Virus record (IMG/VR): IMGVR_UViG_2585427727_000013
DNA: 15,510 nt
Strand: one strand, 5' to 3'
Source of the DNA: a virus
Taxonomy: Duplodnaviria; Heunggongvirae; Uroviricota; Caudoviricetes
Position 1 is the first letter of the stretch; the number at the start of each line of letters is the position of its first letter. Of this stretch, positions 3,492-15,134 are shown in pieces. The position numbers were made by a program, and so were the translations under genes. Below the pieces are notes generated by a model. It saw nothing but the letters and a program-made list of their open reading frames with translations. It made no database searches and had not been told where the DNA came from.

Positions 3492-6400
3492 ATGGGTAAA
3501 GGAAGCAGTAAGGGGCATACCCCGCGCGAAGCGAAGGACAACCTGAAGTCCACGCAGTTGCTGAGTGTGATCGATGCCATCAGCGAAGGGCCGGTTGAAG
3601 GTCCGGTGGATGGATTAAAAAGCGTGCTGCTGAACAGTACGCCGGTGCTGGACACTGAGGGGAATACCAACATCTCCGGTGTCACGGTGGTGTTCCGTGC
3701 CGGTGAGCAGGAGCAGACACCGCCGGAGGGGTTTGAATCCTCCGGCTCCGAGACGGTGCTGGGTACGGAAGTGAAATATGACACGCCGATCACCCGCACC
3801 ATTACGTCTGCAAACATCGACCGTCTGCGCTTTACCTTCGGTGTACAGGCACTGGTGGAAACCACCTCAAAGGGTGACAGGAATCCGTCGGAAGTCCGTC
3901 TGCTGGTTCAGATACAACGTAACGGTGGCTGGGTGACGGAAAAAGACATCACCATTAAGGGCAAAACCACCTCGCAGTATCTGGCCTCGGTGGTGGTGGG
4001 TAGCCTGCCGCCGCGCCCGTTTAATATCCGGATGCGCAGGATGACGCCGGACAGCACCACAGACCAGCTGCAGAACAAAACGCTCTGGTCGTCATACACC
4101 GAAATCATCGATGTGAAACAGGGCTACCCGAACACGGCACTGGTCGGCGTGCAGGTGGATTCGGAGCAGTTCGGCAGCCAGCAGGTGAGCCGTAATTATC
4201 ATCTGCGCGGGCGCATTCTGCAGGTGCCGTCGAACTATAACCCGCAGACGCGGCAATACAGCGGTATCTGGGACGGAACGTTTAAACCGGCATACAGCAA
4301 CAACATGGCCTGGTGTCTGTGGGATATGCTGACCCATCCGCGCTACGGCATGGGGAAACGTCTTGGTGCGGCGGATGTGGACAAATGGGCGCTGTATGTC
4401 ATCGGCCAGTATTGCGATCAGTCAGTGCCGGATGGCTTTGGTGGCACGGAGCCGCGCATCACCTGTAATGCCTGGCTGACCACACAGCGTAAGGCGTGGG
4501 ATGTTCTCAGTGATTTCTGCTCGGCGATGCGCTGTATGCCGGTATGGAACGGGCAGACGCTGACGTTCGTGCAGGACCGGCCGTCGGATAAGGTGTGGAC
4601 CTATAACCGCAGTAATGTGGTGATGCCGGATGATGGCGCGCCGTTCCGCTACAGTTTCAGCGCCCTGAAGGACCGCCATAATGCCGTTGAGGTGAACTGG
4701 ACTGACCCGGATAACGGCTGGGAAACGGCAACAGAGCTTGTGGAGGACACGCAGGCCATTGCCCGTTATGGTCGTAATGTCACGAAGATGGATGCCTTTG
4801 GCTGTACCAGCCGGGGGCAGGCACACCGCGCCGGGCTGTGGCTGATTAAAACGGAGCTGCTGGAAACGCAGACCGTGGACTTCAGCGTGGGCGCAGAAGG
4901 GCTTCGCCATGTACCGGGCGATGTTATTGAAATCTGTGATGATGACTATGCCGGTATCAGCACCGGTGGTCGTGTGCTGGCGGTGAGCAGCCAGACCCGG
5001 ACGCTGACGCTCGACCGTGAAATCACGCTGCCATCCTCTGGCACCACGCTGATAAGCCTGGTTGACGGAAGTGGCAATCCGGTCAGCGTGCAGGTCCAGT
5101 CCGTCACCGACGGCGTGAAGGTGAAAGTGAGCCGGGTTCCTGACGGCGTTGCAGAATACAGCGTGTGGGGGCTGAAGTTGCCGACGTTGCGCCAGCGCCT
5201 GTTCCGCTGTGTGAGTATCCGTGAGAACGACGACGGCACGTATGCCATCACCGCCGTGCAGCATGTACCGGAAAAAGAAGCCATCGTGGATAACGGGGCG
5301 CACTTTGACGGCGACCAGAGTGGCACGGTGAATGGTGTCACGCCGCCAGCGGTGCAGCACCTGGCCGCAGAAGTCACTGCAGACAGCGGGGAATATCAGG
5401 TGCTGGCGCGATGGGACACACCGAAGGTGGTGAAGGGCGTGAGCTTCCTGCTCCGTCTGACCGTAACAGCGGACGACGGCAGTGAGCTGCTGGTCAGCAC
5501 GGCCCGGACGACGGAAACCACATACCGCTTCAGGCAACTGGCGCTGGGGCGTTACACGCTGACGGTCCGGGCGGTAAATGCGTGGGGGCAGCAGGGCGAT
5601 CCGGCATCGGTATCGTTCCGGATTGCGGCACCGGCAGCGCCTGTCACTATTGAACTGATACCAGGGTATTTTCAGATAACAGCGGTCCCGAAACTGGCTG
5701 TATATGACCCGACGGTGCAGTTTGAGTTCTGGTTCTCGGAAAAGCGGATTATCGATATCAGGCAGGTTGAAACCAGCGCGCGTTATCTTGGTACGGCGCT
5801 GTACTGGATAGCCGCCAGTAGCAATATTAAGCCGGGTTATGATTATTACTTTTATATCCGCAGCGTGAACACCGTTGGTAAATCGGCATTTGTGGAGGCC
5901 GTTGGTCGGGCGAGCGATGATGCGGAAGGTTATCTGAATTTTTATAAAGGGTTGATCAATAAAACGCATCTCGGCAAGGAACTGCTGGAAAACTTTGAGC
6001 TGACGGAAGATAACGCCAGCAAACTGGAGGAGTTTTCGAAAGAGTGGAAGGACGCCAACGATAAATGGAATGCCATGTGGGGCGTCAAAATTGAGCAGAC
6101 CAAAGACGGCAAACATTATGTCGCGGGGCTTGGCCTCAGCATGGAGGATACGGAGGAAGGCAAACTGAGCCAGTTCCTGGTTGCCGCTAACCGTATCGCG
6201 TTTATTGACCCGGCAAACGGGAATGAAACGCCGATGTTTGTGGCGCAGGGCAACCAGATATTCATGAACGACGTGTTCCTGAAGCGCCTGACGGCCCCCA
6301 CCATTACCAGCGGCGGTAATCCTCCGGCATTTTCCCTGACACCGGACGGGCGGCTGACGGCGAAAAATGCCGATATCAGCGGTAACGTGAATGCGAACTC

Positions 6401-6887
6401 CGGGACGCTCAACAACGTCACGATTAACGAGAACTGCCGGGTTCTGGGAAAACTGTCCGCGAACCAGATTGAAGGCGATCTCGTTAAAACAGTGGGCAAA
6501 GCTTTCCCCCGTGACTCCCGGGCACCGGAGCGGTGGCCATCAGGGACCATTACCGTCAGGGTTTATGACGATCAGCCGTTTGACCGGCAAATTGTTATTC
6601 CGGCTGTGGCATTCAGTGGCGCTAAGCATGAGAGAGAGCATACTGATATTTACTCCTCATGCCGTCTGATAGTGCGGAAAAACGGTGCTGAAATTTATAA
6701 CCGTACCGCGCTGGATAATACGCTGATTTACAGTGGCGTTATTGATATGCCTGCCGGTCACGGTCACATGACACTGGAGTTTTCGGTGTCAGCATGGCTG
6801 GTAAATGGCTGGTATCCCACAGCAAGTATCAGCGATTTGCTGGTTGTTGTGATGAAGAAAGCCACTGCAGGCATCACGATTAGCTGA
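3492..6887 (+). CDS. J: Tail tip central fibre / host specificity protein J (lambda gpJ-like, 1131 aa)
   Basis: 1131-aa ORF (lambda J is 1132 aa) in the conserved position after I. Good SD (tgaggaatg). N-terminus [34 protein letters not shown] is lambda-J-like. Confidence 0.95.
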
Positions 6888-6905
6888 ATTTTATAACCCA
6901 GATAC

Positions 6906-6954: not shown

Positions 6955-7554
6955 ATGCGTAAATTATGTGCTGTTATTCTGTCCGCAGTAGTCTGGCTGG
7001 TTGCCGCTGGTACGCCAGCGAGCGCAGCAGAGCATCAGTCCACACTAAGCGCCGGGTATCTTCAGACTCATACTGATATGCCAGGCAGTGATGACCTGAA
7101 GGGCATTAACGTGAAATACCGTTATGAATTTACGGACACGCTGGGGCTGGTGACGTCATTCAGTTATGCCAATGCCAAAGATGAGCAAAAAACGCATTAC
7201 AGCGATACCCGCTGGCATGAAGATTCAGTGCGTAACCGCTGGTTCAGCATGATGGCGGGGCCATCTGTACGCGTGAATGAATGGTTCAGTGCTTATGCGA
7301 TGGCAGGTGTGGCTTACAGCCGTGTTTCGACGTTCTCCGGGGATTATCTCCGCGTAACTGACAACAAGGGGAAAACGCACGATGTGCTGACCGGAAGTGA
7401 TGACGATCGCCACAGCAACACGTCTCTGGCGTGGGGAGCTGGCGTGCAGTTTAACCCGACCGAATCCGTGGCCATTGATATTGCTTATGAAGGCTCCGGC
7501 AGTGGCGACTGGCGCACTGACGGTTTCATCGTGGGTGTCGGTTATAAGTTCTGA
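6955..7554 (+). CDS. lom: Lom-like outer-membrane beta-barrel protein (Ail/Lom/PagC family)
   Basis: 199 aa with signal peptide (MRKLCAVILSAVVWLVAAGTPASAAEH), alternating amphipathic beta-strand pattern and C-terminal GVGYKF. Lambda moron position between J and stf, bracketed by terminators. Confidence 0.9.
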   Translation: MRKLCAVILSAVVWLVAAGTPASAAEHQSTLSAGYLQTHTDMPGSDDLKGINVKYRYEFTDTLGLVTSFSYANAKDEQKTHYSDTRWHEDSVRNRWFSMMAGPSVRVNEWFSAYAMAGVAYSRVSTFSGDYLRVTDNKGKTHDVLTGSDDDRHSNTSLAWGAGVQFNPTESVAIDIAYEGSGSGDWRTDGFIVGVGYKF

Positions 7555-7580
7555 TTAGCCAGGTAACACAGTGTTATGAC

Positions 7581-7608
7581 AGCCCGCCGGTTCAGGCGGG
7601 CTTTTTTG
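7581..7608 (+). terminator. Rho-independent terminator after lom
   Basis: Hairpin gcccgcc-ggttca-ggcgggc followed by tttttt. Confidence 0.7.
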
Positions 7609-7618
7609 TGGAGTGGAT

Positions 7619-9997
7619 ATGGCAGCAGTAAAAATCTCAGGTGTGCTGAAAGATGGTGCGGGAAAACCAATACAGAACTGCACTATTCAACTGAAGGCAA
7701 AGCGTAACAGCACCACGGTACTGGTGAACACGGTGGCCTCTGAAAATCCGGATGAAGCCGGGCGTTACAGCATGGACGTTGAGTATGGTCAGTACAGCGT
7801 CATCCTGTGGATTGAGGGTTCTCAGCCATCACATGTTGGGACCATTACCGTCTATGAAGGTTCCAGTCCGGGGACGCTGAATGATTTTCTCGGTGCCATG
7901 ACGGAAGATGATGTCATGCCGGAGGCATTGCGCCGTTTTCAGGCAATGGTGGAAGAAGCGGCACGCAACGCCGAAGCCGCCTCTCAGAGCGCAGCGGCGG
8001 CAAAGAAATCCGAAACTGCAGCGGCATCATCGAAGAACGCGGCGAAAACCTCAGAAACGAATGCAGCTAATAGTGCACAGGCGGCAGCGACCTCAAAGAC
8101 TGCATCGGCAAACTCCGCGACAGCAGCCAAAAAATCAGAAACCAACGCGAAAAATAGCGAGACAGCCGCAAAGACGAGCGAAACCAACGCAAAGTCCAGC
8201 CAGACGGCAGCGAAAACCAGCGAAACGAATACCAAAGCCAGTGAAACTGCGGCGAAAAACAGCCAGGATGCAGCGGCCCAAAGCGAGAGTGCCGCAGCTG
8301 GTTCTGCAAGTGCGGCGGCTTCTTCTGCCACTGCATCAGCCAACAGTCAAAAAGCTGCAAAAACCAGCGAAACTAACGCAAAGTCCAGCCAGACGGCAGC
8401 GAAGACCAGCGAAACGAATGCCAAAGCCAGCGAAACTGCGGCGAAAAACAGTCAGGATGCAGCAGCCCAAAGCGAGAGTGCTGCAGCTGGTTCTGCAAGC
8501 GCGGCGGCTGCTTCTGCCACTGCATCAGCCAACAGTCAAAAAGCAGCAAAAACCAGTGAAACCAATGCAAAGACAAGCGAGACTGCAGCGGCGAACTCGG
8601 CGAAAGCATCGGCAGCAAGCCAGACAGCAGCTAAAGCAAGTGAAGACGCAGCCAGAGAGTATGCAAGTCAGGCAGCAGAGCCGTATAAATATGTCTTACA
8701 GCCACTGCCTGATGTGTGGATACCATTTAACGATTCACTGGATATGATTACGGGCTTTTCGCCATCTTATAAAAAGATTGTTATTGGTGACGACGAAATA
8801 ACGATGCCTGGTGACAAGGTGGTTAAGTTTAAACGCGCATCAAAAGCAACTTACATTAATAAATCTGGTGTGCTGACAGAGGCTACCATTGACGAGCCAC
8901 GATTTGAACGTGATGGCCTGCTTATTGAGGGGCAAAGAACGAACTTCTTCCCGAACAGTACAGACCCTTCGAAGTGGAATAAGTCAACTTCACTGGACGT
9001 TACAGAAACAGGCACAGATAGTTTCGGTTTTAATTATGGCCGGTTTGTCGTACAGGATTCGATTGTTGGTACAAGTAAAGCGCATACCATTATCGGACTG
9101 TATTCGAGTACCGGAGGGGTTGATACTTCAGGGGACGAAAAGTATGTAACTATATCCTGTCGGGTAAAAAGTGAAGTTGATAATATCGACGTTCGTATTT
9201 TATTTGAACATTATGATGGGGAGGTAAGGACATCAATAGGAACAGCAAGCCTGAACCTTACCACCCGCATAATTAGCAAGACAGGTCAGACAAGCCGTGT
9301 TACAGCAAGGTCTGTTAAGGATGATGCAACTGGCTGGATATTTTTTGAGGCTACATTAAAAGCAGATACAACAGAAAATACGGTTGGTGGTTTCGTCCAG
9401 TATTCTCCGGATACAGGTCAGATGGTGGCATCAGGGGATTGTCTCGATGTAACCACTCCCCAGATTGAGGCTGGTACAGGCGCATCATCTTTTATTGTTA
9501 CGGGGGCTGCACCGGTAACGCGGGCAAGCGATATAGTTACAGTCCCAATTAAGAATAATCTTTATAATCTACCTTTTACGGTTCTTTGTGAGGTACATAA
9601 GAACTGGTATAAAACGCCAAATGCAGCACCGCGTGTTTTTGATACCGGCGGTCATCAAACCGGAGCGGCTATTATTCTTGGCTTCGGTTCTTCAGCAGAT
9701 TACGACGGATTTCCTTATTGCGATATTGGTGGGGCTAACAGGCGGATAAACGAAAATGCATCGCTTGAAAAAATGGTTATGGGGATGCGTGTAAAGTCAG
9801 ATCAGTCTACATGCGCAGTAAGTAACGGGCGTATATCCAGCGAAACAAAAACCACATGGTCCTGTATTCAGAACTCCGCAATTATCCGTATTGGAGGCCA
9901 GACTACAGCCGGTTTACGCCATTTATTTGGTCATGTCAGGAATTTCAGAATATGGCACAAGGCATTGACTGATGCTCAGGTGGGGGAGTTAATCTAA
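7619..9997 (+). CDS. stf: Side tail fibre protein, mosaic: lambda-Stf-like N-terminus, Ala/Ser/Thr/Lys-rich repeat shaft, and a non-lambda AT-rich C-terminal module ending in a LamG/concanavalin-like motif
   Basis: The track ORF starts at GTG 7613, but the ATG at 7619 has an SD (ggag, 5-nt spacer) and gives MAAVKISGVLKDG..., matching the lambda Stf N-terminus. Shaft carries SETNAK-type short repeats and a 63-aa tandem duplication. C-terminus ...RIGGQTTAGLRHLFGHVRNFRIWHKALTDAQVGELI resembles the end of LamG-type domains. Confidence 0.85.
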   Translation: MAAVKISGVLKDGAGKPIQNCTIQLKAKRNSTTVLVNTVASENPDEAGRYSMDVEYGQYSVILWIEGSQPSHVGTITVYEGSSPGTLNDFLGAMTEDDVMPEALRRFQAMVEEAARNAEAASQSAAAAKKSETAAASSKNAAKTSETNAANSAQAAATSKTASANSATAAKKSETNAKNSETAAKTSETNAKSSQTAAKTSETNTKASETAAKNSQDAAAQSESAAAGSASAAASSATASANSQKAAKTSETNAKSSQTAAKTSETNAKASETAAKNSQDAAAQSESAAAGSASAAAASATASANSQKAAKTSETNAKTSETAAANSAKASAASQTAAKASEDAAREYASQAAEPYKYVLQPLPDVWIPFNDSLDMITGFSPSYKKIVIGDDEITMPGDKVVKFKRASKATYINKSGVLTEATIDEPRFERDGLLIEGQRTNFFPNSTDPSKWNKSTSLDVTETGTDSFGFNYGRFVVQDSIVGTSKAHTIIGLYSSTGGVDTSGDEKYVTISCRVKSEVDNIDVRILFEHYDGEVRTSIGTASLNLTTRIISKTGQTSRVTARSVKDDATGWIFFEATLKADTTENTVGGFVQYSPDTGQMVASGDCLDVTTPQIEAGTGASSFIVTGAAPVTRASDIVTVPIKNNLYNLPFTVLCEVHKNWYKTPNAAPRVFDTGGHQTGAAIILGFGSSADYDGFPYCDIGGANRRINENASLEKMVMGMRVKSDQSTCAVSNGRISSETKTTWSCIQNSAIIRIGGQTTAGLRHLFGHVRNFRIWHKALTDAQVGELI
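8189..8566 (+). repeat. In-frame tandem duplication inside stf: 2 x 189 bp (63 aa), near-identical
   Basis: Unit starting gcaaagtccagccagacggcagcg occurs at 8189 and again at 8378 with only a few substitutions. It explains the spurious Arg/Lys/Gln-rich ORFs in other frames. Confidence 0.9.
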
Positions 9998-10278
9998 TGA
10001 AAGATTTAACACTCAAATTTGTCGACAGGGCCGACTTTTCGGCCTTTATGGAGAGCATTGGCTATTATGATGACGAGTCGATGCAGGATGATATTCTTAT
10101 TGACGTGATAGGTAATGTGTACAAAGAAACCGGAGAACTTACTGAAGATGGCGAGCCGGTATGTGTTAAGGAGGACGGATATTTTGTAAGCGTGCGCATC
10201 ATTAATGATGCAAAAAAATCGTCAATATTCGATAAATACGCGATTGTTGTTGAGCATCAACTTCGTGGCTGGATGTGA
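9997..10278 (+). CDS. Hypothetical acidic 93-aa protein, translationally coupled to stf
   Basis: Start ATG overlaps the stf stop (TAATG). AT-rich. No motif I can recognise. Confidence 0.5.
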   Translation: MKDLTLKFVDRADFSAFMESIGYYDDESMQDDILIDVIGNVYKETGELTEDGEPVCVKEDGYFVSVRIINDAKKSSIFDKYAIVVEHQLRGWM

Positions 10279-10287
10279 GGGAGACAA

Positions 10288-10992
10288 ATGGCTACATCGA
10301 CAGTAATTCCTGATGACATCAAAACGCTAAAGGGAGATGTCAGTAAAGCCAAGGAAGATATTTCCTCAATTAACGGAAAAGTATCAACGCTTCAGACTGA
10401 TATGACCAGTGCAAAGCAGGATATCAGCTCCAGATACACAAAAACTGAAGTTGATAATAAGCTGAAAAACAAACTGGAAGTGAACGCTCTGGAAAGCGGT
10501 CGTTATGGTGGAGATTTTTACCCGCTGACTGGCCGTGAAGCGTTTTATTTGTGGGGATTGGGCACGACTACAGCGGCGGCAAACCTTTATCTTAATCCTG
10601 ACTCCGCAATTTCGTCTGTACTGCGGTCAACATCGTCTATCCGCTATAAAGATTCAGTAGAGACAATAGATTCAGAGCACGCCGATCTCATTTTCAGGAT
10701 GCGCCCTGTGTGGTACAGGTCGCAATGCGAAAATGACAGGCGTGACTGGGGATTCTACGGATTGATTGCCGAGGAAGTAGGAGAAATTGCCCCTCAGTTT
10801 GTACACTGGCGACCAGCTAACGAGAATGATGCTCCTGAAGCTATTTCCAGCAATGGCCTTGTTGCCGAAGGTGTAATGTACGAACGTCTGGTTGTTCCAC
10901 TGATTCACCATATCCAGAAACTGACTGAAAGAGTTGATGAACTTGAGTCAGAATTAAAGCTGTTATCAACTTCCCGAAGCGATATCGGATAA
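10288..10992 (+). CDS. Short fibre-like protein with a C-terminal peptidase-S74 intramolecular chaperone domain (234 aa)
   Basis: SD gagggag upstream. N-terminal heptad-like repeats (DIKTLKGDVSKAKEDISSINGKVSTLQTDMTSAKQDISS). C-terminal half matches the S74 pattern as I recall it: S-S-I-R-Y-K at the expected autocleavage site, then RPVWYR, GLIAEEVGEIAPQFV, and a terminal coiled coil (IQKLTERVDELESELKLL). Confidence 0.6.
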   Translation: MATSTVIPDDIKTLKGDVSKAKEDISSINGKVSTLQTDMTSAKQDISSRYTKTEVDNKLKNKLEVNALESGRYGGDFYPLTGREAFYLWGLGTTTAAANLYLNPDSAISSVLRSTSSIRYKDSVETIDSEHADLIFRMRPVWYRSQCENDRRDWGFYGLIAEEVGEIAPQFVHWRPANENDAPEAISSNGLVAEGVMYERLVVPLIHHIQKLTERVDELESELKLLSTSRSDIG

Positions 10993-11002
10993 AGGAGGAG
11001 TA

Positions 11003-11296
11003 ATGGATATAAGCCCCTTACTTCATGCACTTTGTGCTGTGGCTGCGCAGACACTGGTTGGTCTTTTTACCGGAAACTGGGCTTACGGAGCGATAGCCGG
11101 TTGTGCGTTCTTCATTGCGCGTGAACACACCCAGGCAGAATATCGCTGGATTGAAATGTTCGGGCATGGCAAGCGAATGAATATGCCGTGGTGGGGCGGT
11201 TTTGATCCGCGCGCGTGGGATGTGGCAAGCCTGATGGATTTTGCTGTGCCGGTGGTGGCGTGTCTGCTGGTCTGGCTGTTGGTTAATCGTGGGTGA
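11003..11296 (+). CDS. Hypothetical small membrane protein (97 aa, hydrophobic N- and C-terminal segments)
   Basis: Strong SD (aggagg). Hydrophobic stretches LLHALCAVAAQTLVGLFTGNWAYGAIAGCAFFIA and FAVPVVACLLVWLLV. Third gene of the compact cassette after stf. Confidence 0.5.
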   Translation: MDISPLLHALCAVAAQTLVGLFTGNWAYGAIAGCAFFIAREHTQAEYRWIEMFGHGKRMNMPWWGGFDPRAWDVASLMDFAVPVVACLLVWLLVNRG

Positions 11297-11306
11297 AAAA
11301 AGGTGA

Positions 11307-11435
11307 GCTGTATATGCAACGGAGGAAGAAACCTCGTTGCGGGAAGCCTGGAAGAAGTATCGGGTGTTGCTGAACCGTGTTGATACATCAACTGCACCTG
11401 ATATTGAGCGGCCTGTGAACCCTGTCAGGGAGTAA
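11307..11435 (+). pseudogene. tfa: 3' remnant of a tail fibre assembly gene (tfa): last ~40 codons only, no start
   Basis: Frame translates ...[39 protein letters not shown], matching the lambda Tfa C-terminus (...[24 protein letters not shown]...) from memory. An in-frame stop lies immediately upstream at 11304-11306. Confidence 0.6.
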
Positions 11436-11486
11436 TCATTGGGATTATGCCGCAGCACGTCTTAAGCAAGAACGTGCTGCGGTTGG
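11316..11486 (+). repeat. Direct repeat copy 1 (~170 bp): tfa 3' end plus downstream hairpin
   Basis: About 90% identical to 12365-12536 by eye. Confidence 0.85.
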
Positions 11487-11498
11487 ATGCTATTTTTT
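11450..11498 (+). terminator. Perfect 11-bp-stem hairpin with downstream T-run after the tfa remnant; possible terminator for the stf operon
   Basis: ccgcagcacgt-cttaagcaaga-acgtgctgcgg (11450-11482), then tttttt at 11493-11498. A degenerate copy lies inside repeat 2 near 12507-12536. Confidence 0.45.
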
Positions 11499-12158
11499 CC
11501 CTGAAGCGGAAAACATTACTACAGTACCTTGAACCTTGGTTTTAACATTCTCGAAATGCTCTGAGAGTATATGTGTTAAGCCTTCTTCGGAATCTTTTGT
11601 GTTTGAAAAGATGCCTTTCTGATTGTAAATGCGCATCAGTTTTTGACCGAAGCTATTGTGCACAACTCCATCGCCAAGAATTGTGGCTCCGTATAGAGTT
11701 CCATCGTCAGTTAAGGCCTGCGCCGCATTGCGTATTACACAGCTTTTTGTAGATATATTTCCAGGCAGGCAGTGAAGAAGGTAAAACATGGAAATGGAAT
11801 CAAATTGACCATGTAACGTCGCGGGATAAGGTTCAAAAACATCATGGCTAATTTTATGTTTAATTTTTGATTCCCCAGCCCTTGTAGATGCCGCGTTCAG
11901 GCTAGCTTCGTTCAAATCCATTAAAGATATCAGACTACTCTCAGGTACGTGAGTAAGGTAAAACCCAGTTCCAACACCAATATCCAGATGGTTGTTACCT
12001 AAATGTTCCAGAAAGTGTGGAAGAAGGTGTTCCTTTGTAGGACATCCCCATGCAAGCCGATTTGATACTCCCAAAACCCACCAGTCATAAAGCTTTAGGG
12101 TAAGTGGTGTGTAAATTTTAGCCCCATCATCTGTGTTTTTTTTCATTAATTTCACCAT
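11490..12158 (-). CDS. Class I SAM-dependent methyltransferase (moron), substrate unknown
   Basis: 222-aa ORF on the minus strand with SAM-binding motif I (LDIGVGTGFY) and an acidic post-motif region. Low GC relative to tail genes. An SD-supported alternative start is the fifth codon (ATG at 12146). Confidence 0.7.
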   Translation of the reverse strand: MVKLMKKNTDDGAKIYTPLTLKLYDWWVLGVSNRLAWGCPTKEHLLPHFLEHLGNNHLDIGVGTGFYLTHVPESSLISLMDLNEASLNAASTRAGESKIKHKISHDVFEPYPATLHGQFDSISMFYLLHCLPGNISTKSCVIRNAAQALTDDGTLYGATILGDGVVHNSFGQKLMRIYNQKGIFSNTKDSEEGLTHILSEHFENVKTKVQGTVVMFSASGKK

Positions 12159-12214
12159 GTTATAGTTTTATTTGTGAATTAAATCAATTACGGCGATGAA
12201 TTACAAGGGGTTAA

Positions 12215-12484
12215 ATGCTGCCGCAGCATAGCGATATTGAAATAGCCTGGTATGCTTCGATACAGCAGGAGCCGAATGGCTGGAAGACCGTCACCACACA
12301 GTTCTACATCCAGGAATTCAGTGAGCATATTGTGCCACTTCAGGATGCTGTAGATCTGGAGATCGCAACGGAGGAAGAAAACTCGTTGCTGGAAGCCTAG
12401 AGGAAGTATCGGGTGTTGCTGAACCGTGTTGATACATCAACTGCACCTGATATTGAGTGGCCTGCAAATCCTGTCAGGGAGTAA
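12215..12484 (+). pseudogene. tfa: 5'-truncated tfa fragment with an in-frame TAG (TGG to TAG) at 12398-12400
   Basis: Track ORF 12215..12400 ends ...SEHIVPLQDAVDLEIATEEENSLLEA*. The same frame continues [27 protein letters not shown] to 12484, matching the lambda Tfa C-terminus with W replaced by a stop. No Tfa N-terminal region is present. Confidence 0.65.
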
Positions 12485-12536
12485 TCATTGGGATTATGCC
12501 GCAGACACGTCGTATGCAGGAACGTGCTGCGGTTAG
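12365..12536 (+). repeat. Direct repeat copy 2 (~170 bp): tfa 3' end plus downstream imperfect hairpin
   Basis: Aligns with 11316-11486 base for base with scattered substitutions. Confidence 0.85.
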
Positions 12537-12600
12537 TTTGTGAGCTTTCGATAGTGCGAGTATTGAATGATTTCCAGCCGTTACCGATTTTACGTGCTAA

Positions 12601-12849
12601 TTAGTGAACAAACCACTCGTCAGCAGACTCCCAGGTATCTTTCAGAGTTTCCTGAACAAAAGTTTTAGCTGAATCTTTATCGGCGGTGCGCGTAACAGAA
12701 AGGCCATCGTTGCTGGTGGCTTTTACGATCACCTCTACATCGTCATAACGTTTACTGATGCGTCGGGTTAATTCTTCCTTTAACGCATCCACAGCACCGG
12801 TTGGCATTTTAGTCATTTTTTCTTTGGCTATGCAGATTTCAATACGCAT
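12601..12849 (-). CDS. dinI: DinI-like DNA-damage-inducible protein (82 aa)
   Basis: [11 protein letters not shown]...[11 protein letters not shown] has the DinI-family pattern (MRIE..IAK...GA.DAL..EL.RRI...TWESAD.WFV) as I recall it for E. coli DinI. SD agaggga. Two LexA boxes immediately upstream. Confidence 0.8.
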
Positions 12850-12910: not shown

Positions 12911-14008
12911 TCAAGAGGTCTTATTTCTGCTCTTTTGGAGCTCTTCAAAACGATTATGTAAAGATTTCGGATACAGTTCGGTATATACCTGCCATAGCAC
13001 GTTTAATGAACGATGTCCTGTAACTTGGGCGACTTCCTCAATACTAAAACCAGCCTCAAATAAGCGACTTGCCCCTTCTCTACGCAAATCATGGTATCGC
13101 AGATCTTTAATACCTAATTTGCTTCTTACCCTCTGAAATCCCGCAGTAACAGAAGTGCTGTTATATGGAAAAATGAATTCCGATTTTTGGGGCTGTCGTT
13201 GGACGATATCCCAGGCTTCCCCAAGCAAGGCTACTTTCATGTGGTTGCCTTCCTTTTTGCGTGGATCTTTCCTGTCTCTTACGAGTATAGATTTTTGTTC
13301 CTGGTCGAGATCTTCCCATCGTAACCGGCATACTTCTCCGATTCGCATACAGGACCACACAGAAAATTTGAGGATATCAACGAACGGAATTTTTGAGCAT
13401 TTATGAGTAGATCGTTGTTGAAGGCCTTCAATGAGCATGTCCAGTTCATCAGATGCTGGTCTACGATTACGACGGTTTGATTTACCAATCAAACCAAGTT
13501 TAAGTAGATATGGACGAGCGCTTTTCGCCGGGTTTGATGTGTAATTAATTCCGTATACAGGTTTAGCCGCATCCAGAACACTGCCAAGATAACTAACATC
13601 GTGGCTGACTGTTGCTGGACCTGCACCAGCGTTGTTTCTTAGCCTACAATGTTCAATTACGTCATTTTCTGTCAGTTCGGATAGTTTGATCGCGGAGATG
13701 TCACTATCCATAAGCAGTTCCAGCACATATCTTTTAGTACGACCTGCTTTACCTCCGGCATTTGAGTCATTTAAATATTTGTGTAGTAAGTCACGGACTG
13801 TAAGTCCGTCAACTGCATTTGATGATGGAATGCCATATAGATCTAATTCCATTACTTTCTGTGTACCCCATGTTTTGGCATGGGCATGTTTAGGGAATGT
13901 TTTGCTTTCCCTGTAAGTGATAACACCTTTTTCTTTGATAATCACATTACAGCGATAGCGTGGTGTGCCATCGGATTTTAGTCGTTTCTCTATGTTATAG
14001 TACGCCAT
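12911..14008 (-). CDS. int: Tyrosine-type site-specific integrase (dusA-associated integrase type)
   Basis: 365 aa with a C-terminal catalytic region carrying an HxxR box (RYHDLRREGASRLF) and ...VTGHRSLNVLWQVYTELY with the candidate nucleophile Tyr. 5' end is 88 bp from the dusA start, divergently oriented. Confidence 0.9.
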   Translation of the reverse strand: MAYYNIEKRLKSDGTPRYRCNVIIKEKGVITYRESKTFPKHAHAKTWGTQKVMELDLYGIPSSNAVDGLTVRDLLHKYLNDSNAGGKAGRTKRYVLELLMDSDISAIKLSELTENDVIEHCRLRNNAGAGPATVSHDVSYLGSVLDAAKPVYGINYTSNPAKSARPYLLKLGLIGKSNRRNRRPASDELDMLIEGLQQRSTHKCSKIPFVDILKFSVWSCMRIGEVCRLRWEDLDQEQKSILVRDRKDPRKKEGNHMKVALLGEAWDIVQRQPQKSEFIFPYNSTSVTAGFQRVRSKLGIKDLRYHDLRREGASRLFEAGFSIEEVAQVTGHRSLNVLWQVYTELYPKSLHNRFEELQKSRNKTS

Positions 14009-14028
14009 TACACGACCTCGTTATTTCG

Positions 14029-14063
14029 GGTTCCCATAAATCGTGGGAACCTGTGCGGGAACC
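14029..14063. promoter_or_regulatory. Inverted repeat ggttccca-N7-tgggaacc plus a third gggaacc half-site in the int-dusA intergenic region; candidate operator or recombinase-binding site
   Basis: Perfect 8-bp inverted repeat at 14029-14036 and 14044-14051; direct gggaacc repeat at 14057-14063. Lies in the divergent promoter region upstream of int and dusA. Confidence 0.35.
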
Positions 14064-14096
14064 TAACGCGAGAAAAATAGCCTGAAATGTTCAAAA

Positions 14097-15134
14097 ATGC
14101 ACGATAATCCTGAAACACAGAAAACTAATCAAACCAGCGTGATGCCTGAGAAAACTGACGCTTACGGGAGCTCTCGGTTTAGCATTGCTCCTATGCTCGA
14201 CTGGACGGACAGACATTGCCGCTATTTCTTGCGTCTGCTTTCCCGCAATACGTTGCTGTATACCGAAATGGTGACCACAGGGGCGATTATTCACGGTAAA
14301 GGTGATTATCTGGCGTACAGTGAAGAAGAACATCCGGTAGCGTTGCAACTCGGCGGTAGCGATCCGGCGGCGCTGGCGCAGTGTGCGAAGCTGGCAGAAG
14401 CGCGCGGATATGATGAGATCAACCTGAATGTCGGCTGCCCGTCTGACCGGGTGCAGAACGGCATGTTTGGGGCGTGTCTGATGGGTAATGCGCAGCTGGT
14501 TGCCGACTGCGTGAAAGCGATGCGCGATGTGGTGTCGATTCCGGTGACGGTGAAAACGCGTATTGGAATCGATGACCAGGACAGCTATGAATTTCTCTGC
14601 GATTTCATCAACACCGTTTCCGGCAAAGGCGAGTGTGAGATGTTCATCATCCACGCACGTAAAGCCTGGCTTTCTGGGTTAAGCCCGAAAGAAAACCGTG
14701 AAATCCCGCCGCTCGATTATCCGCGTGTGTATCAACTGAAGCGTGACTTTCCGCATCTGACGATGTCGATTAACGGTGGCATCAAGTCGCTGGAAGAGGC
14801 TAAAGCGCATTTGCAACATATGGATGGCGTGATGGTCGGGCGCGAAGCGTATCAGAATCCAGGCATTCTGGCGGCGGTAGACCGAGAGATCTTTGGTTCT
14901 TCGGATACCGATGCCGATCCGGTGGCGGTGGTGCGTGCCATGTATCCGTACATTGAGCGTGAACTCAGCCAGGGGACGTATCTCGGCCATATTACCCGGC
15001 ATATGCTGGGCTTGTTCCAGGGTATTCCTGGCGCGCGGCAGTGGCGGCGTTATTTAAGTGAAAATGCCCATAAAGCGGGTGCTGACATTAACGTGCTGGA
15101 ACACGCGCTCAAACTGGTGGCAGATAAGCGTTAA
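14097..15134 (+). CDS. dusA: tRNA-dihydrouridine synthase A
   Basis: 345-aa Dus-family protein with the catalytic-Cys motif ([21 protein letters not shown]). Followed by pspG, as in the E. coli chromosome. Confidence 0.9.

What the first reader, a model, noticed from the sequence alone, without database searches (positions are those of the whole stretch)
7619..9997. Mosaic side tail fibre with an abrupt GC break near 8650 and a swapped C-terminal receptor-binding module
The 5' third of stf is GC-rich and lambda-like at the protein level. From about 8650 to the stop the DNA is markedly AT-rich by eye, and the protein ends in a LamG/concanavalin-like motif that does not resemble the lambda Stf distal region that needs Tfa. 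This fits a horizontally exchanged distal module and predicts altered receptor specificity and independence from Tfa, consistent with the decayed tfa copies downstream.
Basis: partly seen in the sequence, partly recalled or inferred. Interest (0 to 1): 0.6.

Follow-up and report, generated by a model that had tools for sequence, protein, structure and literature searches.

The report
Mosaic prophage side tail fibre
This lambda-like E. coli prophage has swapped the outer half of its side tail fibre for a sugar-binding-type module and two partner genes shared with many unrelated coliphages, which is a real but ordinary case of tail-fibre module exchange.

Summary
The maximum-likelihood GC change point of stf, and of the whole window, is at nt 8684 (0.545 to 0.438; 0 of 200 shuffles match). 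It lies 15 nt before codon Q361 (nt 8699).

- Residues 1-342 are lambda Stf-like: PF08400, 57% identity to lambda orf-401.
- Residues 361-792 show no similarity to lambda's distal Stf (orf-314).
- DNA similarity to virulent phages ESCO3 and SIA3lw begins exactly at 8699.
- Two fragments of the tfa 3' end lie downstream.

- The AT-rich imported unit runs from 8699 to about 10992. It includes a 93-aa gene that accompanies this module in 181 phage records, and a 234-aa second fibre with a self-cleaving S74 chaperone domain.
- The module is itself internally mosaic.
- Tfa is probably replaced by other partners rather than simply dispensed with.

The family is common: PHROG 1419, 2114 clusters at 50% identity, and DNA matches in 1504 of 5426 complete E. 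coli genomes. The receptor is untested and is probably a surface glycan. I rate this a new member of a known kind, of low interest.

The parts
7619..9997 (+). stf, side tail fibre gene (792 aa), downstream of J (3492-6887) and lom (6955-7554)
   Evidence: ORF list. RefSeq CDS WP_032341414.1 in the identical record. Full-length match to phrog_1419 'tail protein', 1415 bits.
7619..8014 (+). N-terminal tail-attachment domain, residues 1-132
   Evidence: PF08400 phage_tail_N, E 9e-64, residues 3-132. Part of the alignment to lambda orf-401 (57% over residues 3-329). GC 0.533.
8015..8698 (+). Ala/Ser/Thr/Lys-rich repetitive shaft, residues 133-360, lambda Stf-like; contains a 189-bp tandem repeat (2.3 copies) at 8164-8590
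   Evidence: 35% Ala, 19% Ser. Aligns to lambda orf-401 up to residue 329. Tandem Repeats Finder: period 189, 91% matches. GC 0.542.
8699..9994 (+). Distal module, residues 361-792: beta-strand-rich model with concanavalin-like lectin/LamG-type fold matches, 'GTA head spike fibre' family; begins with the conserved junction motif QPLPDVWIPFNDSL
9997..10278 (+). orf93, small partner protein of the module; its start overlaps the stf stop (ATGA)
   Evidence: phrog_1361. tblastn finds it in 181 phage records; in all 40 rows listed it lies directly after the module-bearing fibre gene. No Pfam or NCBIfam match. AF2 model unusable, pLDDT 49.
10288..10992 (+). Second, short fibre protein (234 aa): conserved N-terminal peptide MATSTVIPDDIKTLK, short spacer (weak coiled-coil family matches), C-terminal S74 intramolecular chaperone domain with Ser116/Lys121
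   Evidence: PF13884 Peptidase_S74, 27.1 bits vs cut-off 22, residues 116-172. PDB sequence hit to the C-terminus of DT57C LtfA, 8hqz, E 8.5e-6. N-terminal motif conserved in swan01, SelmaRatti, SIA3lw, phiG7, ESCO3 and 2G7b. The motif lies directly after orf93 in every coliphage record where both positions were listed. Motif position.
11003..11296 (+). orf97, small hydrophobic protein that follows the cassette in lambdoid relatives; function unknown
   Evidence: phrog_1443. 92-97% identical in IdasGreatGrand, PhiR49_2, 2G7b and ev207, with or without the second fibre. Hydrophobic segments at about 1-38 and 75-95. GC 0.544.
11315..11484 (+). Remnant 1 of the 3' end of a lambda-type tfa gene
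   Evidence: 87.3% identity to lambda 22437-22608. PGAP partial tfa pseudogene. One copy of a 140-nt direct repeat.
12308..12541 (+). Remnant 2 of the 3' end of a lambda-type tfa gene
   Evidence: 86.9% identity to lambda 22381-22615. PGAP partial tfa pseudogene with an internal stop. Second copy of the 140-nt direct repeat, 94% identical.

Best explanation
stf is a chimera made by recombination.

Shown:
- A lambda-type proximal half (PF08400 domain and Ala-rich repetitive shaft, residues 1-360) is joined at Q361 (nt 8699) to a distal module with concanavalin-like lectin fold matches.
- The module belongs to the family named after the RcGTA head spike fibre.
- The AT-rich block also holds two downstream genes. 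These are orf93, a small protein that accompanies this module in coliphages of several families, and a 234-aa second fibre. That fibre carries a conserved N-terminal peptide and a C-terminal S74 intramolecular chaperone domain.
- Lambda's distal Stf region is absent, and only two 3' fragments of tfa remain downstream.

Inferred:
- The cassette replaced a lambda-type distal Stf and most of tfa.
- The fibre is anchored on the tail tip by the PF08400 domain, and the shaft holds the lectin-like heads outwards.
- The heads mediate reversible primary adsorption to a surface polysaccharide (O-antigen, capsule or LPS core) before J binds its terminal receptor.
- Specificity lies in the variable bodies of the module (residues about 452-612 and 644-763).
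- Folding and assembly do not need Tfa.
- orf93 is either an assembly helper or an adaptor. The second fibre folds with its own chaperone domain, which then cleaves off, and probably docks by its N-terminal peptide to give a composite or branched fibre.
For: GC break and boundary:
- Change point at 8684; 0 of 200 shuffles match.
- The low-GC island covers the module, orf93 and fibre2 (0.41-0.45). Its flanks are at 0.52-0.54.
- Loci of virulent phages carrying the cassette have GC 0.39-0.46.
- blastn to ESCO3 and SIA3lw starts at exactly 8699.
- The QPLPDVWIPFNDSL junction follows an Ala-rich stretch in lambdoid, T5-like, Drexlerviridae and Queuovirinae fibres.

The two halves:
- Proximal half.
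- Absence of lambda's distal Stf.
- Module identity.

Spread and linkage:
- The module always lies at the C-terminus of proteins whose N-terminal parts vary from about 0 to 1000 aa. It occurs in 2114 clusters at 50% identity.
- tblastn finds it in 225 phage records.
- orf93 occurs in 181 phage records; in the 40 rows listed it always adjoins the fibre gene.
- The fibre2 N-terminal motif lies directly after orf93 wherever both positions were listed.

Other support:
- tfa remnants.
- Glycan binding by analogy. The RcGTA head spike fibre binds capsule-bearing cells (PMC10218006). Lateral and side fibres of coliphages generally target O-antigen or other glycans (PMC8594841; PMC11990801).
- In T5-like SIA3lw, the module-bearing fibre ORF42 and the S74 fibre ORF44 were both detected by mass spectrometry of the phage preparation (PMC12752171; locus).
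Against: - No receptor or binding assay exists for this protein or any close relative that I could find.
- The lectin assignment rests on fold similarity at 8-19% identity and a monomer AF2 model, whereas fibres are usually trimers.
- No Pfam LamG or lectin family matched.
- Only residues 2-10 of Rcc01080 are resolved experimentally (PMC10218006). That homology therefore gives no structure.
- The function of orf93 is unknown. Its model failed.
- orf93 identity tracks the neighbouring fibre2 N-terminus rather than the module. Simple linkage could produce this.
- The second fibre here would be only about 115 aa after cleavage. That leaves little room for a receptor-binding domain.
- Part of the GC contrast is due to the Ala-rich shaft. 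Lambda itself shows a milder GC decline along stf-tfa: 0.59, then 0.52, then 0.49.
Confidence: 0.8

Rival explanations
1. The GC break is not a sign of exchange. It reflects amino-acid composition (Ala-rich shaft versus ordinary globular domain) plus the general GC decline from the lambdoid structural arm into the accessory region.
For: - Second-position GC is 0.62-0.72 in the shaft and 0.34-0.52 afterwards.
- The whole right part of the prophage up to int is AT-rich.
- Lambda also declines from 0.59 to 0.49 across stf-tfa.
Against: - Third-position GC also falls, from 0.46-0.55 to 0.37.
- GC rebounds to 0.52-0.54 in orf97 and the first tfa remnant, just after the cassette.
- Nucleotide identity to unrelated virulent phages begins exactly at 8699.
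- The protein beyond Q361 has no similarity to lambda Stf.
Confidence: 0.05
2. The lectin-like module is mainly a docking hub, not the receptor binder. The true receptor-binding protein is the downstream S74-chaperoned fibre, attached through orf93, as in branched T5-like fibres (LtfA/LtfB).
For: - The three-gene order is conserved across phage families.
- The fibre2 N-terminal peptide is conserved and always lies after orf93 in the records compared.
- orf93 identity rises and falls with the fibre2 N-terminus across relatives.
- The fibre2 homologue was detected in the SIA3lw phage preparation.
- Fibre2 bodies are swapped independently: 96% to IdasGreatGrand but 26-28% to 2G7b and ESCO3.
- Two-protein lateral fibres are documented (PMC4728585 and PMC10713586; PMC11990801).
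Against: - The module and orf93 occur without any second fibre in PhiR49_2, ev207 and pangalan.
- The module's own beta-sandwich bodies are the most variable parts. They recombine independently, as expected of a specificity determinant.
- Mature fibre2 here would be only about 115 aa.
- The two roles are not exclusive.
Confidence: 0.3
3. The locus is a decaying remnant in a defective prophage, and the fibre genes are no longer functional.
For: - tfa pseudogene fragments and other partial genes lie downstream.
- Many E. coli prophages are defective (general knowledge).
Against: - stf, orf93, fibre2 and orf97 are all intact ORFs.
- The 3.8-kb block is identical or nearly so in four genomes and 96-98% identical in others.
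- The same gene set is carried by isolated, plaque-forming phages such as IdasGreatGrand, 2G7b and PhiR49_1.
- The upstream tail genes M, L, K, I, J and lom are intact.
Confidence: 0.07

Closest known systems
Side tail fibre Stf with assembly protein Tfa of phage Ur-lambda
   Same: - Same genomic slot (J, lom, stf).
- Same PF08400 N-terminal domain and Ala-rich shaft, 57% identity over 327 residues.
- Presumably the same role as an accessory fibre for reversible primary adsorption.
   Different: - From Q361 on, the protein is unrelated to lambda's distal Stf.
- tfa is reduced to two 3' fragments.
- A different set of partner genes (orf93 and an S74 fibre) follows.
RcGTA head spike fibre Rcc01080 (NCBIfam NF048003 GTA_spike_fiber)
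   Same: - Sequence homology over about 250 residues, E 9.3e-6.
- HMM score above the curated cut-off.
- A beta-rich, lectin-like two-domain prediction is reported for Rcc01080, and it binds capsule-bearing cells (PMC10218006).
   Different: - Rcc01080 is a 325-aa stand-alone protein anchored on a capsid spike base by its N-terminal 10 residues.
- Here the domain is fused to a lambda tail-fibre shaft and carries a second C-terminal beta-sandwich.
- The ligand here is unknown.
Lateral tail fibres of virulent coliphages (T5-like SIA3lw and SelmaRatti, Drexlerviridae swan01, Queuovirinae ESCO3 and phiG7, rV5-like pangalan)
   Same: - Same distal module at 36-74% amino-acid identity.
- Same junction motif, same small downstream gene and, in most, the same kind of second fibre.
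- Up to 93% nucleotide identity with ESCO3 over 9484-10347.
   Different: - Different N-terminal attachment domains and virion types.
- The second fibre is 224-586 aa and has different bodies.
Branched L-shaped tail fibres LtfA/LtfB of T5-like phage DT57C
   Same: - A proximal fibre plus a separately encoded second fibre.
- The C-terminal chaperone domain of the 234-aa protein matches that of DT57C LtfA.
- The concept of a composite fibre (PMC10713586).
   Different: - In DT57C the proximal LtfA itself ends in the chaperone domain.
- No lectin-type terminal module or orf93-like gene is described there.
- Attachment of the second fibre is not shown for the present system.

Membership tests
Lambda-type side tail fibre (Stf) | N-terminal 'prophage tail fibre N-terminal' domain (PF08400) | tested here: met
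   E 9e-64, 213.9 bits vs cut-off 26.6, residues 3-132.
Lambda-type side tail fibre (Stf) | Gene position directly after J and lom in a lambda-like tail gene cluster | tested here: met
   J 3492-6887, lom 6955-7554 (PF06316, E 1.7e-127), stf 7619-9997.
Lambda-type side tail fibre (Stf) | Distal region homologous to lambda orf-314 / T4 gp37-type tip | tested here: not met
   BLASTP against lambda orf-314 gives a best E of 2. No such Pfam family at E <= 0.1.
Lambda-type side tail fibre (Stf) | Intact cognate tfa gene immediately downstream | tested here: not met
   Only two fragments of the tfa 3' end, at 11315-11484 and 12308-12541.
GTA head spike fibre domain (NCBIfam NF048003) | HMM score above the curated cut-off | tested here: met
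   69.2 bits vs 36; residues 435-636 cover profile positions 1-181 of 182. phmmer to Rcc01080, E 9.3e-6.
GTA head spike fibre domain (NCBIfam NF048003) | Binding to capsular or surface polysaccharide | not testable with these tools
   Known only for Rcc01080 (PMC10218006).
Concanavalin A-like lectin / LamG fold | Jelly-roll beta-sandwich fold similar to solved lectin, LamG or CBM domains | tested here: met
Concanavalin A-like lectin / LamG fold | Sequence-level match to a Pfam LamG or lectin family | tested here: not met
   Only PF08400 and PF13620 were reported at E <= 0.1 for the whole protein.
Concanavalin A-like lectin / LamG fold | Identifiable sugar- or Ca2+-binding site | not tested
   No ligand-site analysis was done. 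The variable regions 452-612 and 644-763 are candidates only.
S74 intramolecular-chaperone tail fibres (endosialidase / T5 pb1 type), for the 234-aa protein | Peptidase_S74 domain at the C-terminus, with a Ser and a Lys five residues on | tested here: met
   PF13884, 27.1 bits vs cut-off 22, residues 116-172. SSIRYK at 116-121. Match to the C-terminus of DT57C LtfA. That this spacing is the catalytic dyad rests on my knowledge of the endosialidase family.
S74 intramolecular-chaperone tail fibres (endosialidase / T5 pb1 type), for the 234-aa protein | Autoproteolytic release of the chaperone domain | not testable with these tools
   Needs protein expression and mass analysis.
Composite (branched) lateral tail fibre, LtfA/LtfB type | Second fibre protein physically attached to the first | not testable with these tools
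   Supported only by conserved gene order and the conserved N-terminal peptide, and by detection of the homologue in the SIA3lw phage preparation.

The most novel reading that the evidence does not exclude
The module, orf93 and the S74 fibre may form one portable, Tfa-independent fibre-tip system shared by at least five coliphage lineages. In it, orf93 would be an undescribed adaptor or assembly factor that couples a lectin-type terminal module to a second fibre through that fibre's conserved N-terminal peptide (MATxTVIPxDIxxLK). The virion would then carry two exchangeable receptor-binding units on one side fibre.
Probability: 0.3. Interest if true: 0.5.

Novelty: new member of a known kind. 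Interest (0 to 1): 0.25.

Why it matters
Side and lateral fibres set the first contact between a phage and the glycan coat of its host. Knowing the exact junction (Q361, motif QPLPDVW) and the full extent of the exchangeable cassette gives a practical splice point for retargeting lambda-derived particles. The 93-aa gene is uncharacterised yet accompanies this module in 181 phage records. For prophage biology itself the locus is a textbook case of tail-fibre mosaicism, not a surprise.

Tried and rejected
- Structure of orf93. AF2 with a shallow alignment (78-92% identity) gave pLDDT 49, so no fold search was run on it.
- A profile search with alignment A4, meant to widen orf93 diversity, listed only the same close E. 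coli homologues. That search was effectively wasted.
- Pfam and NCBIfam gave nothing for orf93 or orf97.
- Literature searches found no paper describing this cassette or the receptor of any module-bearing fibre. PMC9659904 and the bioRxiv preprint 10.1101/2022.09.30.509847 concern lambda/T4-type or P2-type tips and were not informative.
- Promoter and terminator scans across 7400-12700 found no more sites than shuffles give. The exception is a strong hairpin after lom.
- 'Decaying remnant' and 'composition-only GC break' were considered and rejected on the evidence given under the rival explanations.
- The third-position GC values printed for minus-strand genes (MTase, dinI, int) were computed in the wrong frame and are not used.
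Full report
**Context.** The window is identical to part of the chromosome of E. coli O166:H15 strain JNE070796. It covers the right end of a lambda-like prophage:
- tail genes up to J (3492-6887), then lom (6955-7554) and stf (7619-9997);
- three small ORFs after stf;
- a minus-strand SAM methyltransferase, then dinI, then an integrase (12911-14008, minus strand);
- the host gene dusA (14097-15134).

**The observation.** GC in 300-nt windows falls from about 0.54-0.57 to 0.44 between 8400 and 8850.
- A maximum-likelihood single change point lies at nt 8684 for the stf CDS (0.545 vs 0.438). The same position is best for 7000-11400 and for the entire window (0.564 vs 0.456).
- None of 200 shuffles of the CDS reached the observed gain.
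- Part of the contrast is compositional. The shaft is 35% Ala, so its second-position GC is 0.62-0.72.
- Third-position GC also drops: 0.545 in the N-terminal domain, 0.456 in the shaft, 0.374 in the distal part.
- The AT-rich block is not confined to stf. It continues through orf93 (0.411) and the 234-aa gene (0.451).
- GC then rebounds to 0.54 and 0.52 in orf97 and the first tfa remnant.
- Lambda shows only a mild decline along stf-tfa: 0.59, 0.52, 0.49.

**Anatomy of the protein.**
- Residues 3-132 match PF08400 (E 9e-64).
- Residues 3-329 align with lambda orf-401, the N-terminal Stf fragment of lambda PaPa, at 57% identity.
- The shaft contains a 189-bp tandem repeat in 2.3 copies at 8164-8590. 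This accounts for 792 aa here against 687-731 aa in some relatives.
- From Q361 onward there is no similarity to lambda orf-314.
- Residues 435-636 match NCBIfam NF048003 'GTA_spike_fiber' (69.2 bits, cut-off 36).
- The region aligns with the RcGTA head spike fibre Rcc01080 (E 9.3e-6).

**Structure of the distal part.** An AlphaFold2 model of residues 356-792, built on 66 diverse homologues, has mean pLDDT 93 and pTM 0.89. It is almost entirely beta-strand.
- Foldseek against PDB and BFVD agrees. BFVD also returns many phage proteins labelled concanavalin A-like.
- I read the model as two such domains, because each match covers less than half of it.
No Pfam lectin family matches the sequence.
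- Conservation across the 66 homologues is high in a frame (361-450, 614-643, 764-788). It is low in the bodies (452-612, 644-763).

**Evidence for exchange.** The module is always C-terminal, on proteins whose N-terminal parts range from about 0 to more than 1000 residues.
- It occurs in 2114 clusters at 50% identity, 424 of them at E <= 1e-10.
- tblastn finds it in 225 phage records. These include lambdoid, Drexlerviridae, Dhillonvirus, Queuovirinae, T5-like and rV5-like coliphages.
- In all but the rV5-like fibre it follows an Ala-rich stretch and begins with QPLPDVWIPFNDSL.
- blastn similarity to the virulent Nonagvirus ESCO3 and the T5-like SIA3lw begins exactly at nt 8699, the Q361 codon, 15 nt after the GC change point.

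**The module is itself a patchwork.**
- The middle part is 95% identical in amino acids to PhiR49_2 but about 50% to 2G7b and ESCO3.
- The last 150 aa, orf93 and the first 15-20 codons of the next gene are 93-94% identical in nucleotides to 2G7b and ESCO3.
- The body of the 234-aa protein is 96% identical to IdasGreatGrand but 26-28% to 2G7b and ESCO3.
- Among 5426 complete E. coli genomes, 1504 have nucleotide matches to some part of module plus orf93. Only 24 carry at least 80% of this particular combination.

**Remnants of the replaced genes.** Nt 11315-11484 and 12308-12541 are each 87% identical to the last 120-177 nt of lambda tfa plus about 50 nt beyond it.
- PGAP calls both partial tfa pseudogenes.
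- They form a 140-nt direct repeat that flanks the methyltransferase gene.
- The simplest reading (inference) is that a lambda-type distal stf-tfa was replaced by a cassette. Its left junction would lie at the shaft/module boundary and its right junction inside tfa.

**The partners.** orf93 starts on the stf stop codon (ATGA).
- tblastn finds homologues in 181 phage records. In the 40 rows listed, each lies immediately after the module-bearing fibre gene.
- It has no Pfam or NCBIfam match, and its AF2 model was unusable.

The 234-aa protein has three parts:
- an N-terminal peptide, MATSTVIPDDIKTLK, conserved in the corresponding proteins of swan01, SelmaRatti, SIA3lw, phiG7, ESCO3 and 2G7b;
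- a spacer with only weak coiled-coil-type family matches;
- a C-terminal Peptidase_S74 intramolecular chaperone domain (27.1 bits vs 22) with SSIRYK at 116-121. This domain also matches the C-terminus of DT57C LtfA.

In the coliphage records where both positions were listed, this N-terminal peptide lies directly after orf93. In T5-like SIA3lw, the module-bearing fibre (ORF42) and the S74 protein (ORF44) were both detected by mass spectrometry of the phage preparation (PMC12752171; locus).

Some relatives (PhiR49_2, ev207, pangalan) have module plus orf93 but no second fibre. The module can therefore stand alone.

**Mechanism.**
- Shown: the chimeric architecture, the boundaries, the linkage of the partner genes, and the loss of tfa.
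- Inferred: the PF08400 domain anchors the fibre to the tail tip and the shaft projects the lectin-like heads.
- Inferred: the heads bind a surface polysaccharide for reversible primary adsorption. This follows the RcGTA head spike fibre (PMC10218006) and the general behaviour of lateral and side fibres, including Ur-lambda Stf on O16 O-antigen (PMC8594841; PMC11990801).
- Inferred: the second fibre folds with its own chaperone domain and probably docks by its N-terminal peptide. orf93 would serve as adaptor or assembly factor.
- The receptor, the oligomeric state of the module and the role of orf93 are unknown.

**Comparison and novelty.** The protein passes the proximal tests for lambda Stf and fails the distal ones (no lambda-type tip, no intact tfa). 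It passes the sequence test for the GTA spike fibre domain and the fold test for concanavalin-like lectins.
- Mosaic tail fibres and two-protein lateral fibres are well documented (PMC8594841; PMC4728585; PMC10713586; PMC11990801).
- This exact protein is in RefSeq (WP_032341414.1).
- The family has a PHROG (1419) and an NCBIfam domain.
- I therefore rate it a new member of a known kind, with low interest.
- The only open point with some novelty is the function of the widely linked 93-aa protein, and whether the three genes build a composite fibre.

Noticed in passing
window 11316-11455 and 12365-12504, flanking 11490-12158 (minus strand): A 140-nt direct repeat (94% identical), made of two remnants of the tfa 3' end, brackets the SAM-dependent methyltransferase gene. 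This looks as if the gene was inserted with duplication of the tfa end. 2G7b has the same arrangement.
   Followed up: partly
window 8164-8590: A 189-bp (63-aa) tandem repeat, 2.3 copies at 91% match, lies in the Ala-rich stf shaft. It makes this allele about 60-105 aa longer than some relatives, so shaft length is polymorphic.
   Followed up: partly
window 11003-11296: orf97 (phrog_1443) is a small, strongly hydrophobic protein with GC 0.54. It is 92-97% conserved after the fibre cassette in lambdoid relatives, whether or not the second fibre is present. Its function is unknown; it is probably a membrane protein.
   Followed up: partly
window 5700-6150 and 6600-6900 (inside J): GC dips to 0.47-0.49 inside the otherwise 0.57-0.63 J gene. 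This suggests the tail-tip protein J may also be mosaic in its C-terminal, receptor-binding part.
   Followed up: no
window 12911-15134: The tyrosine integrase (minus strand) lies 88 nt from the start of dusA, so the prophage sits at the 5' end of dusA.
   Followed up: no
L011 (phage ev207) 5487-8311: In lambdoid phage ev207 the same stf, orf93 and orf97 arrangement is followed directly by sitABCD iron/manganese transporter genes. This is a cargo block in the slot that holds the methyltransferase here.
   Followed up: no
window 7581-7602: A strong terminator-like hairpin (8-bp stem with 7 G-C pairs, followed by a T run) lies between lom and stf, 17 nt before the stf start codon.
   Followed up: no
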